A DNA stretch of 64,000 nucleotides from Haliotis cracherodii. Taxonomy: Eukaryota. The DNA lies in NCBI RefSeq assembly GCF_022045235.1, contig NW_027266343.1, forward strand, positions 2,728,001 through 2,792,000, in the 5' to 3' direction. Within the stretch, counting starts at the first letter, position 1. Each line of letters opens with the position of its first letter. Under the pieces are notes generated by a model that was not told the DNA's origin, did no database searches, and saw nothing but the letters and a program-made list of their open reading frames with translations. This document shows, piece after piece, positions 6,901-63,968 of this stretch. The translations under genes were made by a program, and so were the position numbers.

Positions 6901-9900
6901 ATAATGAAATACTAAGAATAGTAAGTGAGTGAGTTGGGCGCAATGTCGCTTTTAACAGTATTCCAGTTATATCGCGGCGTGTCAGTTTAATGTGGGAGGA
7001 AAGCCAGAGGTGATGCAGGTCTCAGACGTTTACCACTTCGGTGAAACCCACAAGCACGGGTATGGTGCTGACAAACCTAGAAACATAATCAGGGCGAACC
7101 AGGATTCGAACCCACAATCATAGGTTTCTGGCATGCCCAAGGGACACAACTCTGCACAGCGAATCGTGGCGCCTTAGACGACTGGGCAACCCGTGGCCTC
7201 CAAATAAATACTATGAATAAAAGAAGAACTGGCCAAAAATTACATTAGTCTAAGTGTTTGATGTTTCTGTCTGTGACACAGAGGTATTGAGTGGTGCGGC
7301 CTGAAGACATTCCTCTCCTATGCCTACCCCAACCCTGGCCCCAGTGGACTGGTCAAGAACGAGGTCTTCTATGTGGACATCTTGTCTGGTAAATACTGTT
7401 ACACCGTCACCTTTACTGAAGAAATATTTCATGTTAAAGAGAAACAGAAAGTGCTTTTACCATGTCTTTAGCAACTTATCCCAATAGATTTTAATCAACT
7501 TGCCGCTTTGCCATCTAATGGTCATAAGAGGCAACCCAGTGGATCAGGTGTCAGACTTGGTGACATGCTTGTATGTCATCATACCCTGATGACGTGGATC
7601 GATGCTCATGATATCAATCAATGGAGTGTCTGGTCCAGATTCGATAATTTGCAGGCTGCCTTCATATTGCTAGAATATTGCAGTGTTAAACAAAAAGCAA
7701 AACAAACAAAATCTTACCTATGAGACAATCCTTTCCTAAAAAAACAAAAATGAAAGTTGACTGTTGCATCTCCCTCAGGTAAGGTGACGTCGGTGAGGAC
7801 ACAGCGAGATGAGGAGTCCCGCATAGAGTCGCTGCAGATCTCACACCTCAGGTCAGTATCCAGCCCTCCAAGTCACTGCAGATATGTCCATACAAACTCT
7901 TCTGATGATCAGGGACCCGTTCCACAAAGCGATCTTAGTGCTAAGATGATTGTAACTCCTATACTTTAACATAGGCTTATGACAGTCCTGGCACCAATAT
8001 CGCTTTGTGGAACATTTTTGTGTACTTTTCAGAGCTAGCAGGGTCGTTTCTGTGCATGATCATAATTCACTTATTGTAATCTTTTGTGTGAACCATCGGA
8101 TCCTGGCACTCCTAAGGGAAGCAACTGCAGAGCAAACTACAGCACCTAGATAACTGGGCCACCAGTGCACCTAGTTAAATTTTGAGATTTACGATATTTT
8201 CCTGTGAGAAAGAAACAATATTGTTGTGTTCATTCAAATTACTCAACCATAGCTGTCCTGAATGTTAAAAACTGTGAGTGTAATATTGCAATGACTGTGT
8301 ACTGTTGTTGCTGAGTTACGGTGACCCTCCTCGTCTGATGTGACTTTGAAGCTGTCCCCACCTGTGTGTTCCAGGCAGTACTTCGTGCTGGCCTTCAAGG
8401 ACAAGCCCCTGGAGCTTTGGGACATGAGGACTCTCACCATCATCCGGGAGCTGCCTAAAGCCTTCCCCCGACCCACAGCTGCTGTAAGTAGTCAGGGAAT
8501 GGTCCAGTCATATCATCAGGGAGTCAGCTAGGGTTGTCAGAGGCTATAGTCAGCTGCTGTAGGTAGACAGGGAATGGTCCAGTCATATCTCAGGGAGTCA
8601 TCTAGGGTTCTCAGAGGCTGTCGTCAGCTGCTGTCAGTAGACAGGGAATGGTCCAGTCATATCATCAGGGAGTCAGCTAGGGTCAGCTAGGGTTGTCAGA
8701 GGCTATAGTCAGCTGCTGTCAGTAGACAGGGAATGGTCCAGTCATATCATCAGGGAGTCAGTTAGGGTCAGCTAGGGTTGTCAGAGGCTATAGTCAGCTG
8801 CTGTAGGTAGACAGGGAATGGTCCAGTCATATCTCAGGGAGTCAGCTAGGGTTCTCAGAGGCTGTCGTCAGCTGCTGTCAGTAGACAGGGAATGGTCCAG
8901 TCATATCATCAGGGAGTCAGCTAGGGTTGTCAGAGGCTATAGTCAGCTGCTGTCAGTAGACAGGGAATGGCCCTGTCATATCATCAGGGAGTCAGCTAGG
9001 GTTGTCAGAGTCTGTCAGAGGCTGTCAGTAGACAGGGAATGGTCCAGTCATATCACCAGGGAGTCATCTAGGGTCAGCTAGGGTTCTCAGAGGCTGTAGT
9101 CAGGGAATGGTCCAGTCATATCTCCAGGGAGTCATCTAGGGTTGTCAGAGGCTATAGTCAGCTGCTCCCAGTCATATCATCAGGGAGTCAGCTAGGGTTG
9201 TCAGAGGCTGTAGTCAGCTGCTGTCAGTAGTCAGGGAATGGTCCAGTCATATCATCAGGGAGTCTGCTGGGGTTGTCAGAGGCTATAGTCAGCTGCTCCC
9301 AGTCATATCATCAGGGAGTCAGCTAGGGTTGTCAGAGGCTGTAGTCAGCTGCTGTCAGTAGTCAGGGAATGGTCCAGTCATATCATCAGGGAGTCTGCTG
9401 GGGTTGTCAGAGGCTGTAGTCAGCTCTAGGTCTACATCCAACAAGGACAATGCCAGTAAAGTAAATTTTAAGTTATTAAATTGTAACTAATGTAATATGT
9501 CACCCATATATCACTGTGAACAGGATCAAAAGAGTAAGAGATTTAGTTTTATGTGTTTGCATTGAATAAGAAAATAAGGGCTTTGATAAAGACTTTTGGG
9601 CAGAATAGAGCTAAATGTCTGTATCATGGCATGTCAGCCAAATGATGGAGGAAAGTCTAAAGTGATGGGATTGTAGATGTTTACCATTCTTGTGAAACCA
9701 ACGAGCATGTGTGGTGTTGATAGATGAAGGATCAGAATTTGGGTGAATCTTTGATTAAGATTCACTCACTCACTCACTTATTCAAACAAAGCATATTGGA
9801 ATATAATACCATTTGTGTGAATTTCAAGAATCAAGGCTGAAGTTTGTTTATGAGTTTCTAGTTCTCGGGTTCGACTCACATCGCTCAAACACTCAGGTCA

Positions 9901-12900: not shown

Positions 12901-15900
12901 ATATGTAAAAAATGAGCAATGAGTGGAAGCTGTTTATACATGTAGTACAATGAGTGAGTGAGTGAGTTATGTTTAACGCCGCTTTTTACAATATTCCAGT
13001 TACAATCCGGCGTGTCAGCTTAATGTGGGAGGAAAGTCAGAAGTGATGCAGGTCTCAGACATTTACCACATCGGTGAAACCCACAAGCACGGGTATGGTG
13101 CTGACAAACCTAGAAACATAATCGGGGCGAACTGGGATTCGAACCCACAATCATAGGTTTCTTGCGTGCCCAAGGGATGCAACTCTGCACAGTGAATCGT
13201 GCACAGCCACCCGTGCCCCTATACAATAAAACACTGCAGGGAGCATGAACCACTCGTGGCTGCCTCCCTCATGGTTTATTTTCCCTGCAATGTTATATTG
13301 TACGATAAACGACAGCAAGTCATCTATTTCCTATATGAGGTATCAACACGATGTACAGCCATTTTAAGGATGTCAATAAATTGTACTAGCTTTAAAAACA
13401 TTTACCTGTTTTGAAATAAGAATGACTCCTATATGCAATCCAACCTCGGCAATGTGGGAAAACTCCATTTGATGTATAGGGGGGTAGGTTTGGTATTCTT
13501 ACAATTTTCACGCGATTATCTGCACCTTTTCTCCCAATACCAATTGTCATATCTCTCCCACTTCCGGGTGCGATCGTTCGGCCATTGCGTTTATCTGCGC
13601 TGTCCAGCTACATCTATGGGGAAGAACTCACTGGAAAGTCACCTCTCAAAAACAACTTCATCCAATTTACTACGTCATCAAGTTGTGAGCGCATGTTCGA
13701 ATCTCCAGAAATGATGTCATGATAGAGCAATGTTTTATCGTGAAATAAGCCACGTTTCATTCTTCATTCTTCATTGTGATTCAGCGCGTAGCTATCCCAT
13801 ATATGATTATTAGGGGTGACTATTGGTCTGGAAATCACTATTGCGATAACTATTGATATTGAAAGAAACTATTGCGATAACTATTGATATTGCAAGCAAC
13901 TATTGCGATAAATATCGATAGTTTTCAGTGTATTATGTTAGATGGATTTTAGAGTTAAATTAAACCTTGGAACTGAAGTTTCCTTTGAATGTGATAACCT
14001 TAACAACAAATAAGTAAAGTTTGAGATATAACTGATTTGTTTTTTCTTTACCCTAATAATTTAAGAAAAAGAAACTTCCACATTATCATGTGTAAATTAC
14101 TCTTACTCATGATCAAAAGAAAAACAAATTTGAACATCATTGCATGTATTTTATTGATATGGTAAATACAATCGAAACTATCGATATTCCTAACTGAAAT
14201 CGATACTATTGATCAGAAACTGATTTAACAATCGATTTATTGACTTTAAGTGCTTACCAATGGCAACAGATCGATATTTCGATTTATCGTGACACCCCTA
14301 ATGATTATACATTGAAGGTATTATACCCTGGATCATCAAGGATGGCTCTGGTCGGGGTACTATGGTTATTATCTCTGTTTCAAACACAGGCTGTGAGTCT
14401 GTACACTTCTTTTGTTATGACTTTGCCCCTCCGGTTCGACCCGATTATGTTTCTAGGTTTGTCAGCACCATACCCGTGCTCATGGGTTTCACCGAAGTGG
14501 TAAACGTCTGAGACCTGCATCACTTTGGGCTTTCCTCCCACATTAAGCTGACAATATAACTGGAATACTGTTAAAAGCGGCGTTAAACCCAACTCACTCA
14601 CTCACTATGACTTTGCCCTGATTCCAGAACCACACCATCCAGCCGAGGGTGGATCAAGAAAATCCGTTTTGCTCCTGGCCGGGAGAATTTCAAATTCTTC
14701 ACCCTCCACAACGATGGTATTGTGATCTGGGACATCAACAAGGAGGGGAAGGTAGGTGTAGGGGGACGAGCATGTGCAATACTGACTTAACAAGCCAGAG
14801 TGTCCATTTTTATCCCCCACCACAATGTGGAATGAGAATATAGGAATGGGTGCTGTCCGTCCGTCACGTGTCGTTTCTGGAGCAGAACTAAAAAAACATG
14901 AGATGAGATAACCAAACTTGGCACATAGATAGTTTGACATTTTTTAAAAATGTATTTTTCAAGTTTCCATTGCAACGACTTTGACTTAGACAGAAAATGG
15001 GTTAAGTGCTCCTTTCCGAAGCAGATCTTCAAAACTGTACAATATTTCTTCACTAAACTTTGCACATAGATAGGTCTAGTGGTAAACTGGGGCCTTTTGA
15101 TGGTTTGGGATTTTTATCAAATTTATTTTTCGAGTTTCCATAGCAACAACTTTGACTTAGTTCAAAGGGGCTAATGCCTTGCACACAACCGGACATGTCA
15201 TATTGGCGGGGGATATGAGTATTTCATGCTTGTTGTTTGTCCTGTGAGGCTTGAATTCTGATAATGATTATGATACACAACAATCATGCCAATATAGTGG
15301 TAATGTCTTCATAATCCATCCTTCCGCATGTCTGTAGTCAGGACTTTGTTCTGTTTTGGAAATGTAATAAGAAGCTTATGGTGTCAACATAATTTCAACC
15401 AAGAATCAATAGGACACCTAAGCAGATTTGTTTTCATTTGAGTTGTCTCCCTTTGACCTTCATGGGATACCACTAAAAACTGTCTTGTTTCAGTCTGAGA
15501 TCATGCATTCAATCAAGAGTCCCAAAGAGATAGCTAAAGTTGTGGATGCGGAGTGGGCGGGGTCGGACAGGCCGGTGGTGGTGACCGCCAGTGGGTGTGT
15601 CCACATCTTTGACATCACCATGAAGAAAGCCACCTCCAGTATAGACCAGTGGGACCTGACAGGTACAGTCCACCTAGTGACTGGTCATTTATAAGTGGGG
15701 AGAAAGACAAACAATCATATTTTGCTGACACCCCCTCCCACACTTTGTGTAACACTTTTTTCATTCCCCCCCTCCTCAAATACATATAAGGGTGGTCGGG
15801 TAGTCTTGTGTCACTGTTCATGAATCCAGGATAGTGTTGTCGACTGTCTTGCAACAGGCCTGTCACTGTTCATGAATCCAGAATAGTGTTGTTGACTGTC

Positions 15901-18900
15901 TTGCAACAGGCCTGTCACTGTTCATGAATCCAGAATAGTGTTGTCGACTGTCTTGCAACAGGCCTGTCACTGTTCATGAATCCAGAATAGTGTTGTCGAC
16001 TGTCTTGCAACAGGCCTGTCACTGTTCATGAATCCAGGATAGTGTTGTCGACTGTCTTGCAACAGGCCTGTCACTGTTCATGAATCCAGGATAGTGTTGT
16101 CGACTGTCTTGCAACAGGCCTGTCACTGTTCATGAATCCAGGATAGTGTTGTCGACTGTCTTGCAGCAGGCCTGTCACTGTTCATGAATCCAGAATAGTG
16201 TTGTCAACTGTCTTGCAACAGGCCTGTCACTGTTCATGAATCCAGAATAGTGTTGTCGACTGTCTTGCAACAGGCCTGTCACTGTTCATGAATCCAGGAT
16301 AGTGTTGTCGACTGTCTTGCAACAGGCCTGTCACTGTTCATGAATCCAGAATAGTGTTGTCGACTGTCTTGCAACAGGCCTGTCTCTGTTCATGAATCCA
16401 GGATAGTGTTGTCGACTGTCTTGCAACAGGCCTGTCACTGTTCATGAATCCAGGATAGTGTTTTAGACTGTCTTGCAACAGGCCTGTCACTATTCATGAA
16501 TCCAGGATAGTGTTGTCGACTGTCTTGCAACAGGCCTGTCACTGTTCATGAATCCAGGATAGTGTTGTCAACTGTCTTGCAACAGGCCTGTCACTGTTAA
16601 TGAATCCAGAATAGTGTTGTCGACTGTCTTGCAACAGGCCTGTCACTGTTCATGAATCCAGAATGGAGTTGGAAGCTGGCAGGAATTAAGTGTTTTCTGA
16701 TAGGTGTCCTGTCCTCACTGGGCGAGTAGATAAGAACATATAATAGATTGTAAAAGGAAACAAGAAACTATCCCATCCTGAAACTTCTTGAACGCTCATA
16801 CTTGCATGTTTGTCAAGAATCAAAGGGGTAACTCTAATTCACACTTTCATTTCCAATCTGGCCACTACAATAGTGGGCATTGTACCAACACTTCAATTAT
16901 TTGCAGCCGCTGATAATCACTAGAAATAAACTTACAACAAAAAACTATTGCCTCAATGCTCTCTTTAACGAGTGTGTTACTGTGTGTGATGTAGAGCCAG
17001 TGTTCAGCCCCCACTTGTTGCCGCCGAAGTCGTCGCAGCTGATGAAGTGTCTGCTGCAGCACCAGCCTTGGACAGAGGAGTTCAATCTCAGTCTCGAGGG
17101 TATGAGGGAGGACGACTTGGACGTCCAGAGGATTGTCAATGCACAGATCCAGCTCATAGACGGGTGAGTAAACTGTCAGTTCCCTCATACAGCTCATAGA
17201 CGGGCGAGTAGACTGTCAGCTCCCTCATACAGCTCATAGACAGGTGAGAAGGCTGTGAACTCCCTCATACAGCTCATAGACAGGTGAGTAGACTGTCAGC
17301 TCCCTCATACAGCTCATAGACAGGTGAGTAGACTGTCACATCCCTCATACAGCTCATAGACAGGTGGGTAGACTGTCAGCTCCCTCATACAGCTCATAGA
17401 CAGGTGAGTAGACTGTCAGCTCCCTCATACAGCTCATAGACAGGCGAGTAGACTGTCAGATGTATCAACCACTGTTGTTTCTGATCCACACACTTTGTAC
17501 GGGCTGCCATGATATAGGTGTAACAGATAATGAGATTATAGGTGTAGATGCACTACTTACCGTGTAGGAATACAATCTTTGAGTAAACTGCCCTTGTATC
17601 CTAGAGTGATCCTTTTTATGTTTATCAAATGTTGATACAAGTTTATTCTGTTGGTTTAACACATAGATAACACTCTCCATGATATGATAAACATATGATG
17701 AGTGTTTCTGCTCTGCACGTCTGTACACTTGTTGTTTCAGTGATCTGTTGGCCTATCTGCCTTACTGCCAGTTCGGGACAGCCCAGCGATGCCTCCTCAC
17801 AGCAAGGTAACCTCCCTCCAATCAAATCTTTGAAATGTCACCTTCTGTTAAACTGTATTTCTCATAGGGTACAGGTGTCAATGAAATTATATTGATGCTG
17901 ATTGCTAGTTCATGTCATTCGTCCATTGTTTTCATTGCTTATGAAGCAGTCCATTGCAATGTGACATCATGACATGTTGCAACAATTCAAGATGATGCAA
18001 GCTGTTCTTCATCAGGGGTGTCACAATAAATCCAAATATCGATCTATTGCCATTGGTAAGCACTTAAAGTCAATAAATCAATTGTTAAAACAATATCCAA
18101 TCAATAGTTTTGATTTCAGTTAGCAGTATCAATAGTTTTGATTGTATTTACCATATCAATAAAATACATGCAATGCTGTTCAAATTTGTTTTTCTATTGA
18201 TCATGAGTGGTATTAATTTACACATGATAATGTGGAAGTTTCTTTTTCTTAAATTATTAGGGTAAAGAAAAAACAAACCTGTCATATCTCAAACTTTACT
18301 TATTTGTTGTTATGGTTATCACATTCAAAGGAAACTTCAGTTCCAAGGTTTAATTCAACTCTAAAATCCATCTAAAATGATACACTGAAAACTATCGATA
18401 TTTATCGCAATAGTTGCTTGCAATATCAATAGTTATAGCAATAGTTTCTTTCAATATCAATAGTTATCGCAATAGTGATATCTAGACCAATAGTCACCCC
18501 TATTGTTCATGATGTCACAACTGCCTCTGTGGTCAAGAACACAGAGCATGTGTCTGGAGAGTAGGTCAGTGGTTTGATCCTCAGACCTTATACCAAAAGA
18601 AGCTAAAAGATGACACTTGTTGTTTCCCTGCCTGGTGCTCAGCATTAAGGGGATAAAACAAGGACTGGTCGGCTCAGTCAGTACACTGTGAGACCTTGTA
18701 CAGTCAAGAGGAGCATCAGATGTGTAGTTGACTGTTCCTGCCTCCACTCTAGGAGTGTTTGTGTTGTGTTGACAGATTGTTTGGTGATGAATCTGAAATC
18801 CACTTCTGGACCGTGGCCCTCCACTATCTCCGGTCAACGAAGGCCCAGCCGGTCAGCAAGGTAATGTGGGCTGTAGGGCTGGGACCGGGAACTCGGGTAA

Positions 18901-21900
18901 ACGGGGCTGTAGGGCTGGGACTGGGAACTCGGGTAAACAGAGCTGTAGGGCTGGGACAGGGAACTCGGGTAAATGGGGCTGTAGGGCTGGGACAGGGAAC
19001 TCGGGTTAACGGAGCTGTAGGGCTGGGACAGGGAACTCGGGTAAACGGAGCTGTAGGGCTTGGACAGGGAACTCGGGTAAACGGAGCTGTAGGGCTGGGA
19101 CAGGGAACTCGGGTAAACGGGGCTGTAGGGCTGGGACAGGGAACTCGGGTAAACGGAGCTGTAGGGCTGGGACCGGGAACTCGGGTAAACAGGGCTGTAG
19201 GGCTGGGACAGGGAACTCGGGTAAACGGAGCTGTATGGCTGGGACAGGGAACTCGGGTAAACGGAGCTGTAGGGCTGGGACAGGGAACTCGGGTAAACGG
19301 AGCTGTAGGGCTGGGACAGGGAACTCGGGTAAACGGAGCTGTAGGGCTGGGACCGGGAACTCGGGTAAACGGGGCTGTAGGGCTGGGACAGGGAACTCGG
19401 GTAAACGGAGCTGTAGGGCTGGGACAGGGAACTCGGGTAAACGGAGCTGTAGGGCTGGGACCGGGAACTCGGGTAAACGGGGCTGTAGGGCTGGGACCGG
19501 GAACTCAGGCACACGGGTAGGGTGGATCCCGACTAGGACCCTCGGTCTCCACAACTGTAGTTTCTTGGAACAATAATGCTATTTATTTATGATTAGGGGT
19601 GAGTGAGAATGGTTTTACGCCTCTTTTAGCAATATTCCAGCAATATCCAGGCGGAGGATACCAGAAATTGTCTTCACACATTGTACCCATGTCGGGAATA
19701 GAACCCGGGTCTTCGACAAGTGAATGCTTTAACCACTAGGCTACCTGACCGCCCCTTATGATTTGGATGTGTAGAATGTAGTTGACCAGTGTAACTAGGA
19801 AAGCCTATCTACATGGCTGCGGTAAAACAGATCCCAATCGGACATTTTGTACCCAATCCTTGAGACCTACAGTGTGTACCTGTGTTGGGTCAGAATTTTC
19901 ATTATGTTAAACATATTCTGGTTGCCCTGTTGAGAAATTATGCCTCCTGTGCCAAGGATATACAGCACTTCTAAAGATTTACTACAGCTTTAGATCTTCT
20001 GGTATGTCAGTAATATTTTTTGCTCTTGCTTTTTACAGTCCCCAAGCCGTGTGACCTCGCAGGCAGACATGACAGATCTGTTTGTGCCACAGACCCCGGG
20101 GTACAAGGAGGCGAGCGACCTCGTGTTGCTGGAGAACCCTGAGGAGACAGAAAGACAGCGCATCCTCACCAACCTCTACCGCGACCAGCCGCTGGAGCGA
20201 TGCTACGACGCCATGGTCGACAACAGGAACTTTAAGGTGGGAACTCCACTTCCTGTGTTGGTGTTTGTTATGCTTGGTAATAAAGGGAATTCATGGTTGG
20301 CATCTGGCTGTGTAGCATATATGGAAGAATTTGCATAATCATACTGTTGCATAACGTCAGCTACATCTTGAAGGTGTAAACTCCCTCCCTATGCTGGTCG
20401 TAAGAGGCGACTAACTGGATAGGGTGGTCAGGCTTGGTGACTTGGTTGAAAGCATGTGAATCACTGGATTGTCTGGTCAAGACTTGATTATTTTACAACT
20501 GGAAAATTTCAGAGTGTGGCATTAAGGGCTCAGTACATTGACCGATCTGAACCATGTTTGGAAACAACAGCCAATATCCCCCAAGCTTACCCGGCTCTGC
20601 TTGCTTTATTCTGTGAGAGAAGTTTCTGCTCTAGTGGCCACACTGTGGCTGTAATCTTATGACGTGGCCAGAGTTTTGTTTGTAAACAAATGCACTTATT
20701 CTGAAATGAAAACATACAGGCCTAATGCAAGCCTTTCAAAGCGCTTTCATATTGTTTTGCATGATTATATAGATTTCCTTCCGTCCAAGGTACTTTAAGG
20801 ATGTTAATTTACGGTAATTTGAAGGTCATTTGCAACATTGGATTGACATACCTTCACCTGAACTATGGAATACCCCCTGATGATGTGGGATGTGCGAGGG
20901 GTACAGTGTCAGTGCCGGAGGGCCGTTGGACCTTTACCGTAGTTCCCCCAGCAATCACAAGAGGATGTTCTTCGATAACAGCTTTTATTCACTCTTTGTG
21001 TTGCTGGTCCAACACACTCTATTTGTCACTTAGTGACAAGACTTCGGACGCAAGGTGTCAGTCTCGGTCTACATTCTGGTGCATGAGATCAGTTTCTAGT
21101 TCGAAAGGTAGTGACATCCAAAGAGATCAGGCGCACACCAGACTGCCTGACTTGAGGTCTGCTCTTCGTTAAATACCCGTGTGTCTACATCACAACTTTT
21201 TGTTTTTGTTTGTTTGTTGTTTAACGCTGCACTCAGCAATATTCCAGCTATATGACGGCGGTCTGTAAATAATCGAGTCTTGACCAGACAATCCGGTGAT
21301 TAACATCATGAGCATCGATCCGCACAATTGGGATACGATGACATGCATCAACCAAGTGAGCGAGCCCGCTCCCGTAAGTCGCCTTTTACGACAAGCATAG
21401 TTGCCTTTTACGGGAAAGCATGGGTTGCTGAAGACCTATTCTACCCCTGAATCTTCACGCGTCTATGTCACAACTACCAACATCATGACTTACCATTGGT
21501 CGGTAACCTTTCCCCCTTGAAATAGACTATTCCACCCCTATAGTTCTTACCCCAATCCCTTATTTGGCCCTCTGTTGGGTGGATTCCGAGATTTCCAGGA
21601 ATTTGGACCTCACTTCTGAGGACCATCTATGTCTAATAAGTCGGAAGGTACCTGGCTAGAAATGTCCTATTTCTGACACTACTGATGCTATTTCCAAAAT
21701 CCCGTTGGTCAAAGTCTCACTCACACACTAACCTACTTTCATGTCCCTAAGCATTTCTCACTGAACACTAATGAAATTATCAAACCTTGATATAGTTCAT
21801 AATATTTGCCTCCTAATTACATGAATTATTAAAACAACTTCATACTAATTATCTAAACAAATATTATAATTTCATGCCTATGATACTACTGCAACTGCAT

Positions 21901-24900
21901 CAGTGAGGTGTAAGACAATATAGCTTTACACAGCAAAGTGACTGTATCGCTTCAATGACAGAATGTGAAGCATATCTACGCAAATGGAAATAGTTTTAAG
22001 ATATTTTTTAAGATATATTATGAAAATATCGTTTAACTACATGTGTAGACCCGTCAAAATGAAAGAAATGAAAAACATGTAAAGATTGTGTAAGATGTGA
22101 CGATGTGACGATGTGACAGAGTTATGAGGTTGGCCGCAAGGAACCCTGGGTAGTAGAGTGATTGGCTTCATACGACCGAGGCATATTTATATTGTAATCT
22201 AGACCTTGATAAACACTGGCTTCTAATATAATCAAGCTGGCAAGAATTATTTTGTAACTTGTCCATAGAAAAACACAAAAGCTTTCTCTTCAATTTGCCT
22301 TAAAATCATGACTTGAGGCAGCTTCCGTGGAACTACATCAAGACAGATACAATTTGTGTATTGCAGAAGTACCAGCTAGACCGTGTGTCCCTCCATGACA
22401 GCAAGCGGTCGACGTACGAGCACACTCAGAAGTGTGCCGAAAACTACATGCTGCTGGGCCAGACAGACCGGGCCGTGCAGCTGCTGCTGGAGACCGAGGC
22501 GGACAACGACAACTACTACGTCGACAGTCTCAGGTGGGTGAACAGCTACTACGTCGACAGTCTGAGGTGGGTGGTCAGTCTCGGGTGGACAGTGTCAGGT
22601 GGGTGGACAGTGTCAGGTGGGTGGACAGTGTCATGTGGGTGGACCAGGTGGGTGGACAGTGTTATGTGGGTGGACAGTGTCATGTGGGTGGACAGTGTCA
22701 TGTGGATGGACAGTGTCATGTGGGTGGACCAGGTGGGTGGACAGTGTCAGGTGGGTGGACAGTGTCATGTGGCTGGACAGTGTCAGGTGGGTGGACAGTG
22801 TCATGTGGGTGGACCAGGTGGGTGGACAGTGTCATGTGGGTGGACAGTGTCAGGTGGGTGGACAGTGTCAGGTGGGTGGACAGTGTCATGTGGCTGGACA
22901 GTGTCATGTGGCTGGACAGTGTCAGGTGGGTGGACAGTGTCATGTGGGTGGACCAGGTGGGTGGACAGTGTCATGTGGGTGGACAGTGTCAGGTGGGTGG
23001 ACAGTGTCAGGTGGGTGGACAGTGTCATGTGGCTGGACAGTGTCAGGTAGGTGGACCAGGTGGGTGGACAGTGTCAGGTAGGTGGACCAGGTGGGTGGAC
23101 AATGTCAGGTGGGTGGACAGTGTTAGGTGGGTGGACAGTGTCAGGTGGGTGGACAGTGTTAGGTGGGTGGACCAGGTGGGTGGACAGTGTTAGGTGGGTG
23201 GACAGTGTCAGGTGGGTGGACAGTGTCAGGTGGGTGGACAGTGTCAGGTAGGTGGACCAGGTGGGTGGACAGTGTCAGGTAGGTGGACAGTGTCAGGTGG
23301 GTGGACAGTGTCAGGTGGGTGGACAGTGTCAGGTGGGTGGACAGTGTCAGGTGGGTGGACCAGGTGGGTGGACAGTGTCAGGTGGGTGGACAGTGTCAGG
23401 TGGGTGGACAGTGTCAGGTGGGTGGACAGTGTCATGTGGCTGGACAGTGTCAGGTGGGTGGACAGTGTCAGGTGGGTGGACAGTGTCAGGTGGGTGGACA
23501 GTGTCAGGTAGGTGGACCAGGTGGGTGGACAGTGTCAGGTAGGTGGACCAGGTGGGTGGACAATGTCAGGTGGGTGGACAGTGTCAGGTGGGTGGACAGT
23601 GTTAGGTGGGTGGACCAGGTGGGTGGACAATGTCAGGTGGGTGGACAGTGTCAGGTGGGTGGACCAGGTGGGTGGACAAGGTAGGTGGACAGTGTTAGGT
23701 GGGTGGACAGTGTCAGGTAACAGGTGGCTGATATTGAGATACTGACCCCTTAGATAGTCTTAGTCAGGATAAGAAATCTTGGCCATCAAATTCGACAGTT
23801 TGTAAAAATTGACTAGGAAGTTATGGTGGAACAACATTGACAGTTCATTGACAGTGAGATGAAAGCAAGTCTGTAATAATCCTGATGTTATGTCTAACAG
23901 TCGACCTGTTGTTCTGCAGGGCCTGCCTTGTAGCCAGCATCAGGTCCTCAGGGGCCTCACAGAGCACCATCAAACTCGTGGCCACAAACCTCATCGCCAA
24001 TGGTAAACTGTCAGGTATGTATTGGGACATGTTGTGTAGGCTGCCGCAAATCCATGTATGGAGCCGCCTCCCTTAGGCGTGCCAGTAACCTACTTCCCAC
24101 CATAGATCCTACATGTAATATTAGTGATTATTATACGAGCATGTGTGTCATACTGATTTCATGAAACGAGTGTCAGAATTCTTGTGTTTCCCAACCAAGA
24201 ACAAGGGTAATAAATGAATTCTTACGCAATTCGAAAGGCCTCGAACAATGTCGTCCGGATGATGTAAATGATACACTGGTGAGGGAGTACTGTTTTACGC
24301 TGCATTTAGCTATATTCCAGCAATATCACGACAGGGGACACCAGAAATGGGCTTCACACATTGTACCCATGTGGGGAATTGAACCCAGGACTTCGGCGTG
24401 ACGAGCGAACACTAGGCCTCCCCACACAATACACTGGTGAAGTGAAGTGATATTTACACTGGCGCGCATAAGATTTTTATGAACGTGGTTATTTCTAACC
24501 TCAGTGGTAATACATATGAGGTAATGCATGTGACGTGTCTGTGCGTGACAGTCGGTGTTGTGTGTTGCAGAAGGGGTGCAGCTGCTTTGTCTGATCGACA
24601 AGGGGCTGGACGCATGTCGGTACCTGCAGACGTACGGCAACTGGGACAAGGCTGTCTGGCTGGCCAAGGTCAGGACTCCATGTGTATGTTGTGTGCCAGT
24701 TTATCAGCATGCGCAGGACAAGGGTCTGTCTGTCTGTCTGCAAGCATGCTGGATAAATTAGAACTTGTCCTATATCAATACATTGTTTATGGATAATGAC
24801 TTCTTTTATCCTTTCTAACAATGTTTGGGTAACAATTTCTTTTATCCTTTCTAACAATGTTTGGGTAACAACTTCTTTTATAATTTGTTACGAGGTTTGG

Positions 24901-61699: not shown

Positions 61700-63968
61700 T
61701 AGGGTGGGTGGGTGGATGGTAAGATGGGGTGGGTTAGGAGGATGTGGCTGTGGAGGGGTGGGTTAGGAGGATGTGGCTGTGGAGGGGTGGGTTAGGAGGA
61801 TGTGGCTGTGGAGGGGTGGGTTAGGAGGACGTGGCTGGAGGGGTGGGTTAGGAGGATGTGGCTGTGGAGGGGTGGGTTAGGAGGATGTGGCTGTGGAGGG
61901 GTGGGTAGATGGTAAGATGGGGTGGGTTAGGAGGATGTGGCTGTGGAGGGGTGGGTTAGGAGGATGTGGCTGTGGAGGGGTGGGTTAGGAGGACGTGGCT
62001 GTGGAGGGGTGGGTTAGGAGGATGTGGCTGTGGAGGGGTGGGTTAGGAGGACGTGGCTGGAGGGGTGGGTTAGGAGGATGTGGCTGTGGAGGGGTGGGTT
62101 AGGAGGATGTGGCTGTGGAGGGGTGGGTTAGGAGGATGTGGCTGTGGAGGGGTGGGTTAGGAGGATGTGGCTGTGGAGGGGTGGGTTAGGAGGACGTGGC
62201 TGGAGGGGTGGGTTAGGAGGATGTGGCTGTGGAGGGGTGGGTTAGGAAGATGTGGCTGTGGAGGGGTGGGTTAGGAGGATGTGGCTGTGGAGGGGTGGGT
62301 TAGGAGGATGTGGCTGTGGAGGGGTGGGTTAGGAGGATGTGGCTGTGGAGGGGTGGGTTAGGAGGATGTGGCTGTGGAGGGGTGGGTTAGGAGGATGTGG
62401 CTGTGGAGGGGTGGGTTAGGAGGATGTGGCTGTGGAGGAGGGGGGTTAGGAGGATGTGGCTGTGGAGGGGTGGGTTAGAAGGATGTGGCTGTGGAGGGGT
62501 GGGTTAGGAGGATGTGGCTGTGGAGGGGTGGGTTAGAAGGATGAGGCTGTGGAGGGGTGGGTTAGGAAGATGTGGCTGGAGGGGTGGGTTAGGAAGATGT
62601 GGCTGTGGAGGGGTGGGTTAGGAGGATGTGGCTGTGAGGGGTGGGTTAGGAGGATGTGGCTGGAGGGGTGGGTTAGGAGGATGTGGCTGTGGAGGGGTGG
62701 GTTAGGAGGATGTGGCTGTGGAGGGGTGGGTAGATGGTAAGATGGGGTGGGTTAGAAGGATGAGGCTGTGGAGGGGTGGGTTAGGAAGATGTGGCTGGAG
62801 GGGTGGGTTAGGAGGATGTGGCTGTGGAGGGGTGGGTTAGGAGGATGTGGCTGTGGAGGGGTGGGTTAGGAGGATGTGGCTGTGGAGGGGTGGGTTAGGA
62901 GGACGTGGCTGGAGGGGTGGGTTAGGAGGATGTGGCTGTGGAGGGGTGGGTTAGGAAGATGTGGCTGTGGAGGGGTGGGTTAGGAGGATGTGGCTGTGGA
63001 GGGGTGGGTTAGGAGGATGTGGCTGTGGAGGGGTGGGTTAGGAGGATGTGGCTGTGGAGGGGTGGGTTAGGAGGATGTGGCTGTGGAGGGGTGGGTTAGG
63101 AGGATGTGGCTGTGGAGGGGTGGGTTAGGAGGATGTGGCTGTGGAGGAGGGGGGTTAGGAGGATGTGGCTGTGGAGGGGTGGGTTAGAAGGATGTGGCTG
63201 TGGAGGGGTGGGTTAGGAGGATGTGGCTGTGGAGGGGTGGGTTAGAAGGATGAGGCTGTGGAGGGGTGGGTTAGGAAGATGTGGCTGGAGGGGTGGGTTA
63301 GGAAGATGTGGCTGTGGAGGGGTGGGTTAGGAGGATGTGGCTGTGGAGGGGTGGGTTAGGAGGATGTGGCTGTGGAGGGGTGGGTTAGGAGGACGTGGCT
63401 GGAGGGGTGGGTTAGGAGGATGTGGCTGTGGAGGGGTGGGTTAGGAAGATGTGGCTGTGGAGGGGTGGGTTAGGAGGATGTGGCTGTGGAGGGGTGGGTT
63501 AGGAGGATGTGGCTGTGGAGGGGTGGGTTAGGAGGATGTGGCTGTGGAGGGGTGGGTTAGGAGGATGTGGCTGTGGAGGGGTGGGTTAGGAGGATGTGGC
63601 TGTGGAGGGGTGGGTTAGGAGGATGTGGCTGTGGAGGAGGGGGGTTAGGAGGATGTGGCTGTGGAGGGGTGGGTTAGAAGGATGTGGCTGTGGAGGGGTG
63701 GGTTAGGAGGATGTGGCTGTGGAGGGGTGGGTTAGAAGGATGAGGCTGTGGAGGGGTGGGTTAGGAAGATGTGGCTGGAGGGGTGGGTTAGGAAGATGTG
63801 GCTGTGGAGGGGTGGGTTAGGAGGATGTGGCTGTGAGGGGTGGGTTAGGAGGATGTGGCTGTGGAGGGGTGGGTCAGGAGGATGTGGCTGTGGAGGGGTG
63901 GGTTAGGAGGATGTGGCTGTGGAGGGGCGGGTAAGGAGGATGTGGCTGTGGAGGGGTGGGTAGATGGG
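61700..63968. repeat. 29-bp G-rich minisatellite, ~78 copies
   Basis: Unit GGAGGATGTGGCTGTGGAGGGGTGGGTTA with recurring variant blocks. Confidence 0.97.

What the first reader, a model, noticed from the sequence alone, without database searches (positions are those of the whole stretch)
22510..23720. A 1.2-kb array built from the splice donor itself
Seen: the exon end AACTACTACGTCGACAGTCTCAG|GTGGGTG is first duplicated as a 33-nt in-frame unit, giving a second donor at 22567 that would add WVNSYYVDSLR. Its last 11 exon nt plus 7 intron nt are then amplified as GACAGTGTCAG|GTGGGTG about 65 times. Some variants destroy the G|GT context (CAT GTG), while others improve it (CAG|GTAGGT, and the final CAG|GTAACA at 23717). 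The real donor therefore competes with dozens of near-identical ones, and each AG|GT is formally also an acceptor or recursive site. The G-runs could form RNA G-quadruplexes or bind hnRNP H/F (inference).
Basis: partly seen in the sequence, partly recalled or inferred. Interest (0 to 1): 0.7.

Follow-up and report, generated by a model that had tools for sequence, protein, structure and literature searches.

The report
Splice-donor minisatellite in abalone WDR11
An intron of the abalone WDR11 gene begins with about 67 tandem copies of its own splice signal, a type of repeat already described in human and lancelet genes and common in this genome, and the extra copies are likely ignored and harmless.

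Summary
The array is real: 67 units (18 and 13 nt) plus a 33-nt precursor fill most of a 1,386-nt WDR11 intron in an abalone genome, leaving 62 extra AG|GT sites, 53 of them strong donor matches. It is a new member of a known kind: donor-spanning minisatellites (human F7 intron 7, CBS intron 13; lancelet 'mirages'), where the first site wins. Six of six annotated Haliotis isoforms use the first donor; two assembled RNA data sets from related organisms argue against the in-frame second donor, but the junction was not read directly, so minor leakage stays open. It is not special here: two other WDR11 donors carry such arrays, and 25 of 537 predicted introns sampled across the genome do, against 10 at acceptors (12.3 expected each). 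Copies show no sign of selection. This scan has found the same kind before at other loci of this genome. The only new lead is the roughly twofold donor-side excess.

The parts
22367..22533 (+). WDR11 coding exon (TPR region) whose last 26 nt seed the repeat
   Evidence: 100% identical to Haliotis WDR11 P0001; Pfam TPR_WDR11 E 0.0017, below the curated cut-off; spliced mapping
22531..22539 (+). Authentic 5' splice site CAG|GTGGGT (first copy)
   Evidence: 11.7 bits, stronger than 94% of 429 predicted donors; 10 of 10 read-through ORFs from other animals lose similarity at this point
22508..22573 (+). Two copies of the 33-nt precursor unit; second copy carries an in-frame pseudo-donor after 22566
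22574..22587 (+). 14-nt degenerate unit between precursor and array
22588..23722 (+). Minisatellite: 67 units of 18 or 13 nt, 11 unit variants, with block duplications
   Evidence: found only here in the genome
23714..23722 (+). Last, partial unit CAG|GTAACA; weaker than the real donor
   Evidence: 7.3 bits; shared by DNA contigs of runs X3 and X8
23723..23919 (+). Unique 3' part of the intron with branch-point-like motifs and the true acceptor
   Evidence: 7 YTRAY motifs in 23720-23919, 0 in the array; acceptor 11.9 bits
23920..24014 (+). Next WDR11 exon
   Evidence: covered by RNA contigs of X16 and X13

Best explanation
This is a minisatellite built from the WDR11 exon-intron junction and found only at this locus; the spliceosome likely uses the first, exon-adjacent donor and removes all copies with the intron, so the array is likely neutral. 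Shown: the unit spans the junction, the first copy is the conserved donor, the annotated proteins carry no insert, and such arrays are frequent in this genome. Inferred origin: slippage duplicated a 33-nt junction piece (the second copy starts with AACAG, the same five letters that follow the array's last GT, so they likely come from the old intron start); loss of 15 nt between two GACA motifs gave the 18-nt unit, which expanded by block duplications with 5-nt deletions. Inferred splicing: the most upstream functional donor is taken, as tested for human F7 intron 7; any rare use of a later copy would mostly give a premature stop (56 of 62 sites) and likely be removed by nonsense-mediated decay, so there is little selection for or against the copies.
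For: Intron and donor mapped with a protein. 6 of 6 Haliotis isoforms read DSLR|ACL; 2 may be annotated on this same genome, 4 are from two other species; their only difference nearby is a 15-nt alternative donor two exons later, so short donor shifts do get annotated. 101 of 125 homologues matched the junction pattern, all without insert. RNA contigs of X16 and X13 have zero depth over 23700-23884 and fit from 23917 (5/37 of the bin), i.e. the joined exon ends in CAG, which the second donor does not. 56 of 62 pseudo-sites give a stop within the next two exons. Class: 3 of 22 in-window WDR11 donors are spanned by arrays; 25 of 537 predicted introns elsewhere. No purge or conservation of the copied GT: varied in 0.059 of copies against 0.083 for other non-CpG dinucleotides, 25 arrays, p 0.16; copies near the real donor are not weaker (4 of 21 arrays rise with distance, 13 fall); periods are multiples of 3 in 9 of 22 against 24 of 64 for interior arrays. 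Precedent: PMC1557585, PMC3087553, PMC3902484.
Against: No RNA run of the window's own organism was listed and all runs are contigs, which drop rare forms. The 23917 start does not separate the first donor from the 18-nt copies, which also end in CAG. It is not known whether organism D or the two other annotated species carry the array. In 6-16 and CBS the nearest copies are used (as cited in PMC1557585). In this array the weakened variants cluster near the real donor (13 of the first 26 units, 1 of the last 41), which could reflect selection, though copies are not independent. The first-site rule was tested in mammalian cells only.
Confidence: 0.76

Rival explanations
1. Leaky array: the nearest copies are used at a measurable rate, giving an 11-residue insert (22566) or NMD-bound transcripts, so copy number or variant order tunes WDR11 output, as reported for human CBS and 6-16.
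For: 53 pseudo-donors score 9.1 bits or more and 6 are in frame without a stop; the second donor lies only 33 nt downstream; precedent as cited in PMC1557585; weakened variants cluster at the 5' end of this array.
Against: No isoform with the insert among 6 of 6 cluster members; the major assembled RNA in 2 of 2 runs does not fit the second donor; no class-wide weakening of near copies.
Confidence: 0.15
2. The G-rich array acts as an intronic enhancer or RNA G-quadruplex (hnRNP H/F-type) that helps or regulates the real donor.
For: 48% G, 53 GGG triplets, 46 two-tier motifs; G4Hunter-type score reaches 1.2 in 10% of windows. G-triplet enhancers downstream of donors are recalled from mammals, not tested here.
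Against: 0 three-tier motifs at loops up to 12, mean score 0.85, no window at 1.5; the real donor is already strong (94th percentile); the other donor-spanning arrays listed have unrelated, mostly not G-rich units, so G-richness follows from the donor that was copied.
Confidence: 0.05
3. The AG|GT copies serve as acceptors or recursive sites, removing the intron in steps or seeding a new intron.
For: By a matrix alone the CAG|GTGGGT units score 2.4-7.5 bits as acceptors, overlapping the low end of real ones (5th-25th percentile 4.0-6.8). PMC3087553 proposes intron gain from such repeats.
Against: True acceptor scores 11.9; no YTRAY or TRAY motif in the array against 7 YTRAY before the true acceptor; the unit is purine-rich; the intron is 1.4 kb, whereas recursive sites are recalled from very long introns.
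Confidence: 0.02
4. The array is inflated or created by assembly error.
For: Its full length was not spanned by any independent contig.
Against: 11 unit variants in a non-random order; two independent DNA runs break exactly where the repeat predicts.
Confidence: 0.02

Closest known systems
Human F7 intron 7 37-bp VNTR (PMC1557585; read: abstract, passages of Introduction/Results/Methods, whole Discussion)
   Same: First unit spans the exon-intron boundary; the donor is reiterated down the intron; even the intronic hexamer is the same (gtgggt). [quoted passage not shown]
   Different: 5-9 copies of 37 nt with 4 exon nt, against 67 copies of 18/13 nt with 11 exon nt and a 33-nt precursor; F7 was tested in cells, this locus was not.
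Human CBS intron 13 31-bp VNTR c.1444_1467+7(16_21) (nomenclature read in passages of PMC2630376; splicing only as cited in PMC1557585), with 6-16 intron 2, lamin B2 and PDGF intron 4 (as cited, primary papers not seen)
   Same: Nearly the same anatomy as the 33-nt precursor: 24 exon + 7 intron nt there, 26 + 7 here.
   Different: CBS and 6-16 are reported to use the nearest extra sites as well; no such use was found here. Copy-number polymorphism is shown there, untested here.
Amphioxus 'mirages' (Adh3, troponin C, globins, PGBD5; passages of PMC3087553 and PMC3902484)
   Same: Minisatellite-like duplications of either exon-intron boundary in an invertebrate, units of 10-160 nt, reported not to disturb splicing; suggested to be common in that lineage.
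   Different: Described from single genes; I saw no genome-wide count or donor/acceptor comparison in the passages read. Here a mollusc, with a sampled rate of about 4.6% of introns at donors and 1.8% at acceptors.

Membership tests
Donor-spanning minisatellite (F7 IVS7 / CBS IVS13 type; 'mirage') | Head-to-tail repeat of minisatellite-sized unit | tested here: met
   period 18, 68.7 copies, 83% matches
Donor-spanning minisatellite (F7 IVS7 / CBS IVS13 type; 'mirage') | First unit spans the authentic exon-intron boundary | tested here: met
   array starts 25 nt inside the exon, donor mapped at 22533
Donor-spanning minisatellite (F7 IVS7 / CBS IVS13 type; 'mirage') | Donor sequence reiterated in the following intron | tested here: met
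   40 further CAG|GTGGGT and 22 other AG|GT sites
Donor-spanning minisatellite (F7 IVS7 / CBS IVS13 type; 'mirage') | Normal mRNA made from the most upstream site; later sites silent or minor | tested here: inconclusive
   6 of 6 isoforms and 2 of 2 RNA contig sets agree, but the junction was not read directly and contigs drop rare forms
Donor-spanning minisatellite (F7 IVS7 / CBS IVS13 type; 'mirage') | Copy number varies among alleles (VNTR) | not testable with these tools
   only short-read contigs, which break at the array
Recursive (ratchet) splice site | Pyrimidine tract and branch point before AG|GT | tested here: not met
   0 YTRAY/TRAY in the array; purine-rich unit; acceptor score 2.4-7.5 against 11.9
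Recursive (ratchet) splice site | Intermediate junctions or lariats in nascent RNA | not testable with these tools
   no raw RNA reads listed
Canonical RNA G-quadruplex motif | Four G3+ tracts with loops of 1-7 (or 1-12) nt | tested here: not met
   0 matches; only two-tier motifs (46); mean G4Hunter-type score 0.85 (algorithm written from recall)
Dispersed satellite or transposon-borne repeat | Unit present at other loci | tested here: not met
   11 of 11 exact dimer matches lie in this array

The most novel reading that the evidence does not exclude
Abalone introns breed minisatellites at their 5' ends: about 1 in 20 introns of conserved genes starts with an array of its own donor, twice what random placement predicts, while acceptors sit at expectation. 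This would point to a mutational process tied to the 5' splice site (or to an asymmetric tolerance by the spliceosome), and would give thousands of natural donor-competition assays, this 67-copy array being among the richest, to test the first-site rule outside mammals.
Probability: 0.3. Interest if true: 0.55.

Novelty: new member of a known kind. Interest (0 to 1): 0.22.

Why it matters
The locus itself is ordinary for its kind and for this genome. It matters a little as an extreme natural case (53 strong decoys behind one donor in a conserved gene) of a rule so far tested on 5-9 copies in mammalian cells. The sampled donor-over-acceptor excess (25 against 10, 12.3 expected) is the part worth following: if it holds on a full annotation it says something about where minisatellites are born or which are tolerated.

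Tried and rejected
No RNA holder on record was listed for the stretch; this is no evidence on expression, and the six 'RNA?' runs are guesses by the tool. A dispersed repeat near 24280-24413 swamped the loose-end table, so the junction letters were not shown. A protein search with the in-frame read-through of the first array units found 12 candidates, none at E 0.01 (near lengths only, weak). Rfam: one chance-level hit, 18.5 bits against a cut-off of 70. RNA folding of 22500-22800: z 0.31, no special structure (quadruplexes not modelled). A first test suggested that the copied GT is more conserved than other positions (0.085 against 0.21, p 0.01), but its control used the peripheral first copy and included CpG and edge windows; with a consensus-based control the effect vanished (p 0.16-0.17, rank test p 0.09), so it is rejected. 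The idea that donor-killing variants are selected near the real donor fits this array but not the class. My first impression from the window alone (12 of 23 arrays start within 60 nt of a donor, 2 end within 60 nt of an acceptor) was stronger than the wider sample: in the first 100 regions arrays of all sizes showed no polarity (37 against 30 of 165), only minisatellites of 100 bp or more did (30 against 17 of 78, p 0.06). The intronless kinase loci and the compact myosin cluster loci returned were not used. Paper searches returned nothing; others returned nothing on junction minisatellites in molluscs or on a genome-wide donor/acceptor count.

Full report
Setting. The window is animal DNA rich in tandem repeats (49 TRF rows). 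The exon at 22367-22533 is 100% identical to a Haliotis WDR11 protein (P0001). Spliced mapping of P0001 and of a Haliotis RPB2 protein (P0131) gives 22 WDR11 introns on the + strand and 23 RPB2 introns on the - strand inside the window, and 7 more WDR11 introns upstream. The intron in question is 22534-23919, 1,386 nt, phase 2.

Observation. Confirmed. A 33-nt piece (26 exon + 7 intron nt) is present twice, then a 14-nt remnant, then 67 units from 22588 to 23722. 53 units keep AG|GT, 14 have G-1 changed to T, 14 are 13-nt deletion variants; 11 variants occur in a non-random order with repeated blocks of up to 8 units. There are 63 AG|GT sites in 22495-23730 with the real donor. The unit dimer matches 11 times in the genome, all here, so the repeat was born at this locus. 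DNA contigs from run X3 (organism A) and X8 (organism B) both start 11 letters left of 23700; the window sequence predicts a contig break at exactly 23689 because that 30-mer recurs with two different next letters. So a repeated array with the same end exists in two further samples, one of another organism. Its length in them is unknown.

Strength of the copies. With a donor matrix self-trained on this genome (WDR11 sites were among the training sites), the real donor scores 11.7 bits, above 94% of 429 predicted donors. 53 of 62 later sites score 9.1 or more. Joining each site to the next two exons gives a stop in 56 of 62 cases; six are in frame and open (22566, 22647, 22956, 22992, 23010, 23046); the first in-frame stop is at 23048.

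Which donor is used. All 6 of 6 members of the Haliotis WDR11 cluster, from three species, read DSLR|ACL; two of them may be annotated on this same genome. Their isoforms differ by a 15-nt alternative donor two exons later, so a short donor shift is visible to that annotation (that these models draw on RNA data is recalled). 101 of 125 homologues matched the junction pattern, all with the same length; of the 24 that did not, 10 were read and all 10 lose similarity at this same point, as genomic read-through would, so the intron position is old. In the two RNA-type runs laid (X16 organism B, X13 organism D; kind guessed by the tool) depth is zero over 23700-23884 and fills 5.0 and 4.98 of 37 bases of the bin before 23921, i.e. 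the fit starts at 23917. The upstream exon in those contigs therefore ends in CAG, which fits the first donor and the 18-nt copies but not the second donor (GAG). This is indirect: the junction letters were not shown, contigs drop rare forms, and no RNA of the window's own organism was listed.

Other claims. Acceptor or recursive use: matrix scores of 2.4-7.5 bits overlap weak real acceptors, but the true acceptor scores 11.9, and the array has no YTRAY or TRAY motif against 7 YTRAY in the last 200 nt of the intron. G-quadruplex: no three-tier motif, 46 two-tier motifs, mean score 0.85, maximum 1.24; protein binding to the 53 GGG triplets cannot be tested here. Folding z-score 0.31; Rfam nothing.

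How common. In WDR11 itself arrays also span the donors at 8483 and 17163, others start 2-21 nt after donors, and one spans an acceptor upstream of the window. To look wider I located multi-exon genes by Pfam searches (DEAD, kinase, myosin head, SNF2), took 100 stretches of 10 kb around hits and 35 of 76 planned neighbours (1.35 Mb), and predicted exons with a self-trained model. Held-out accuracy: 25 of 27 predicted donors and 27 of 27 acceptors right in WDR11 (28 true exons), 21 of 21 and 20 of 21 in RPB2 (22 true); 91 of 100 Pfam anchors recovered in frame. Among 537 phase-consistent introns in 82 blocks, 129 arrays (period 10 or more, 100 bp or more) lie in 119 introns; 25 span the donor and 10 the acceptor, against 12.3 expected at each edge if the seed unit fell uniformly (P 0.0005 for donors, 0.29 for acceptors; 25 against 10, p 0.017); with a stricter exon score 23 against 9 of 429. 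Block bootstrap: donor 4.6% (2.8-6.6), observed/expected 2.0 (1.4-2.8); acceptor 1.8%, 0.80 (0.39-1.38); 15 blocks against 4, p 0.019. A test without TRF gives 18 against 5 of 387 introns, and the donor side stays ahead out to 200 nt. Limits: exons are predicted, one of the 25 looks like a false exon (kept in the counts, dropped from the tests below), 5 overlap the donor by 3 nt or less, the genes are conserved families and not a random sample, and the null ignores base composition.

Selection on copies. None found. The consensus unit keeps GT in 22 of 25 arrays; GT varies in 0.059 of copies against 0.083 for other non-CpG dinucleotides (p 0.16; 2 arrays skipped for too few copies). An earlier, biased control had suggested conservation. 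Near copies are not weaker, and periods are not enriched for multiples of three (9 of 22 against 24 of 64). This array has the most copies as strong as the real donor among 22 compared (33; next 30 and 21), so it is at the top of a continuum, not apart from it. Against neutrality: in this array 13 of the first 26 units but 1 of the last 41 carry the weakened donor; block duplication can explain that.

Mechanism. Shown: anatomy, local origin, conserved first donor, proteins without insert, frequency of the class. Inferred: birth by slippage of the 33-nt piece (the second copy begins with AACAG, as does the sequence after the last GT), shortening to 18 nt between two GACA motifs, expansion by block duplication; selection of the most upstream donor; removal of rare mis-spliced RNA by NMD.

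Known cases. PMC1557585 (abstract, passages, Discussion read) describes the human F7 intron 7 VNTR whose first unit spans the boundary, shows with 50 constructs that later sites are functional but unused unless the upstream one is lost, and cites 6-16, CBS, lamin B2 and PDGF, with use of the nearest extra sites in 6-16 and CBS. PMC2630376 (passages) gives the CBS unit as 24 exon + 7 intron nt, 16-21 copies. PMC3087553 and PMC3902484 (passages) describe lancelet 'mirages' at both boundaries that do not disturb splicing. PMC10078293 (passages) catalogues splicing-linked repeats in humans; the passages seen give no count of junction-spanning ones. I found no paper on such arrays in abalone or a genome-wide donor/acceptor count in searches; the library lacks most subscription journals, the primary 'mirage' papers were not seen, and no supplements were read. 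Earlier notes of this scan report the same kind at seven other places of this genome; they led me to the lancelet and CBS papers and are not counted as support.

Verdict. Real, a new member of a known kind, likely neutral; interest 0.22. The donor-side excess across the genome is the one lead that could be new.

Noticed in passing
window 8476-9425, 17150-17459, 18870-19506 (+) and 48088-46752 (-): Four more arrays at donors: two span WDR11 donors (8483, 17163), one starts 10 nt after donor 18860 and carries GTAA in register, one starts 2 nt after RPB2 donor 48090. My exon model chose a copy (18896) over the true donor 18860, so that array may be a better candidate for leakage.
   Followed up: partly
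window 24668 and 24683: Alternative donors 15 nt apart add VRTPC/VRTQC; this separates isoforms X1 and X2 in three Haliotis species, and RNA contigs of X16 and X13 run to 24684, i.e. use the weak distal site.
   Followed up: partly
G000:C80:2724804-2725160 (L020): A 31-nt array spans a WDR11 acceptor upstream of the window; the protein-mapped acceptor is the last copy.
   Followed up: partly
G000:C67:728201-748200 (L246, L280): One myosin gene region has four donor-spanning arrays and arrays at two acceptors within 20 kb; some introns are almost wholly repeat.
   Followed up: no
window 24280-24413: Very high-copy dispersed repeat, SINE-like by size and tail (label from appearance, not tested); thousands of contigs lay on it.
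   Followed up: no
window 61726-63961: G-rich 29-nt array, 78 copies, mean G4Hunter-type score 1.44, a far better quadruplex candidate than the finding.
   Followed up: no
window 13837-13920 and 18393-18476: Two 31-nt short arrays in opposite orientation in different WDR11 introns share their unit, suggesting a small mobile element with an internal repeat.
   Followed up: no
G000:C12:46.07-46.20 Mb: About 20 near-identical, tandemly spaced DEAD-domain matches with 7-8 internal stops each.
   Followed up: no
sample of 537 predicted introns: Minisatellites make up 91,476 of 539,051 intron bases (17%) and lie in 119 introns.
   Followed up: partly
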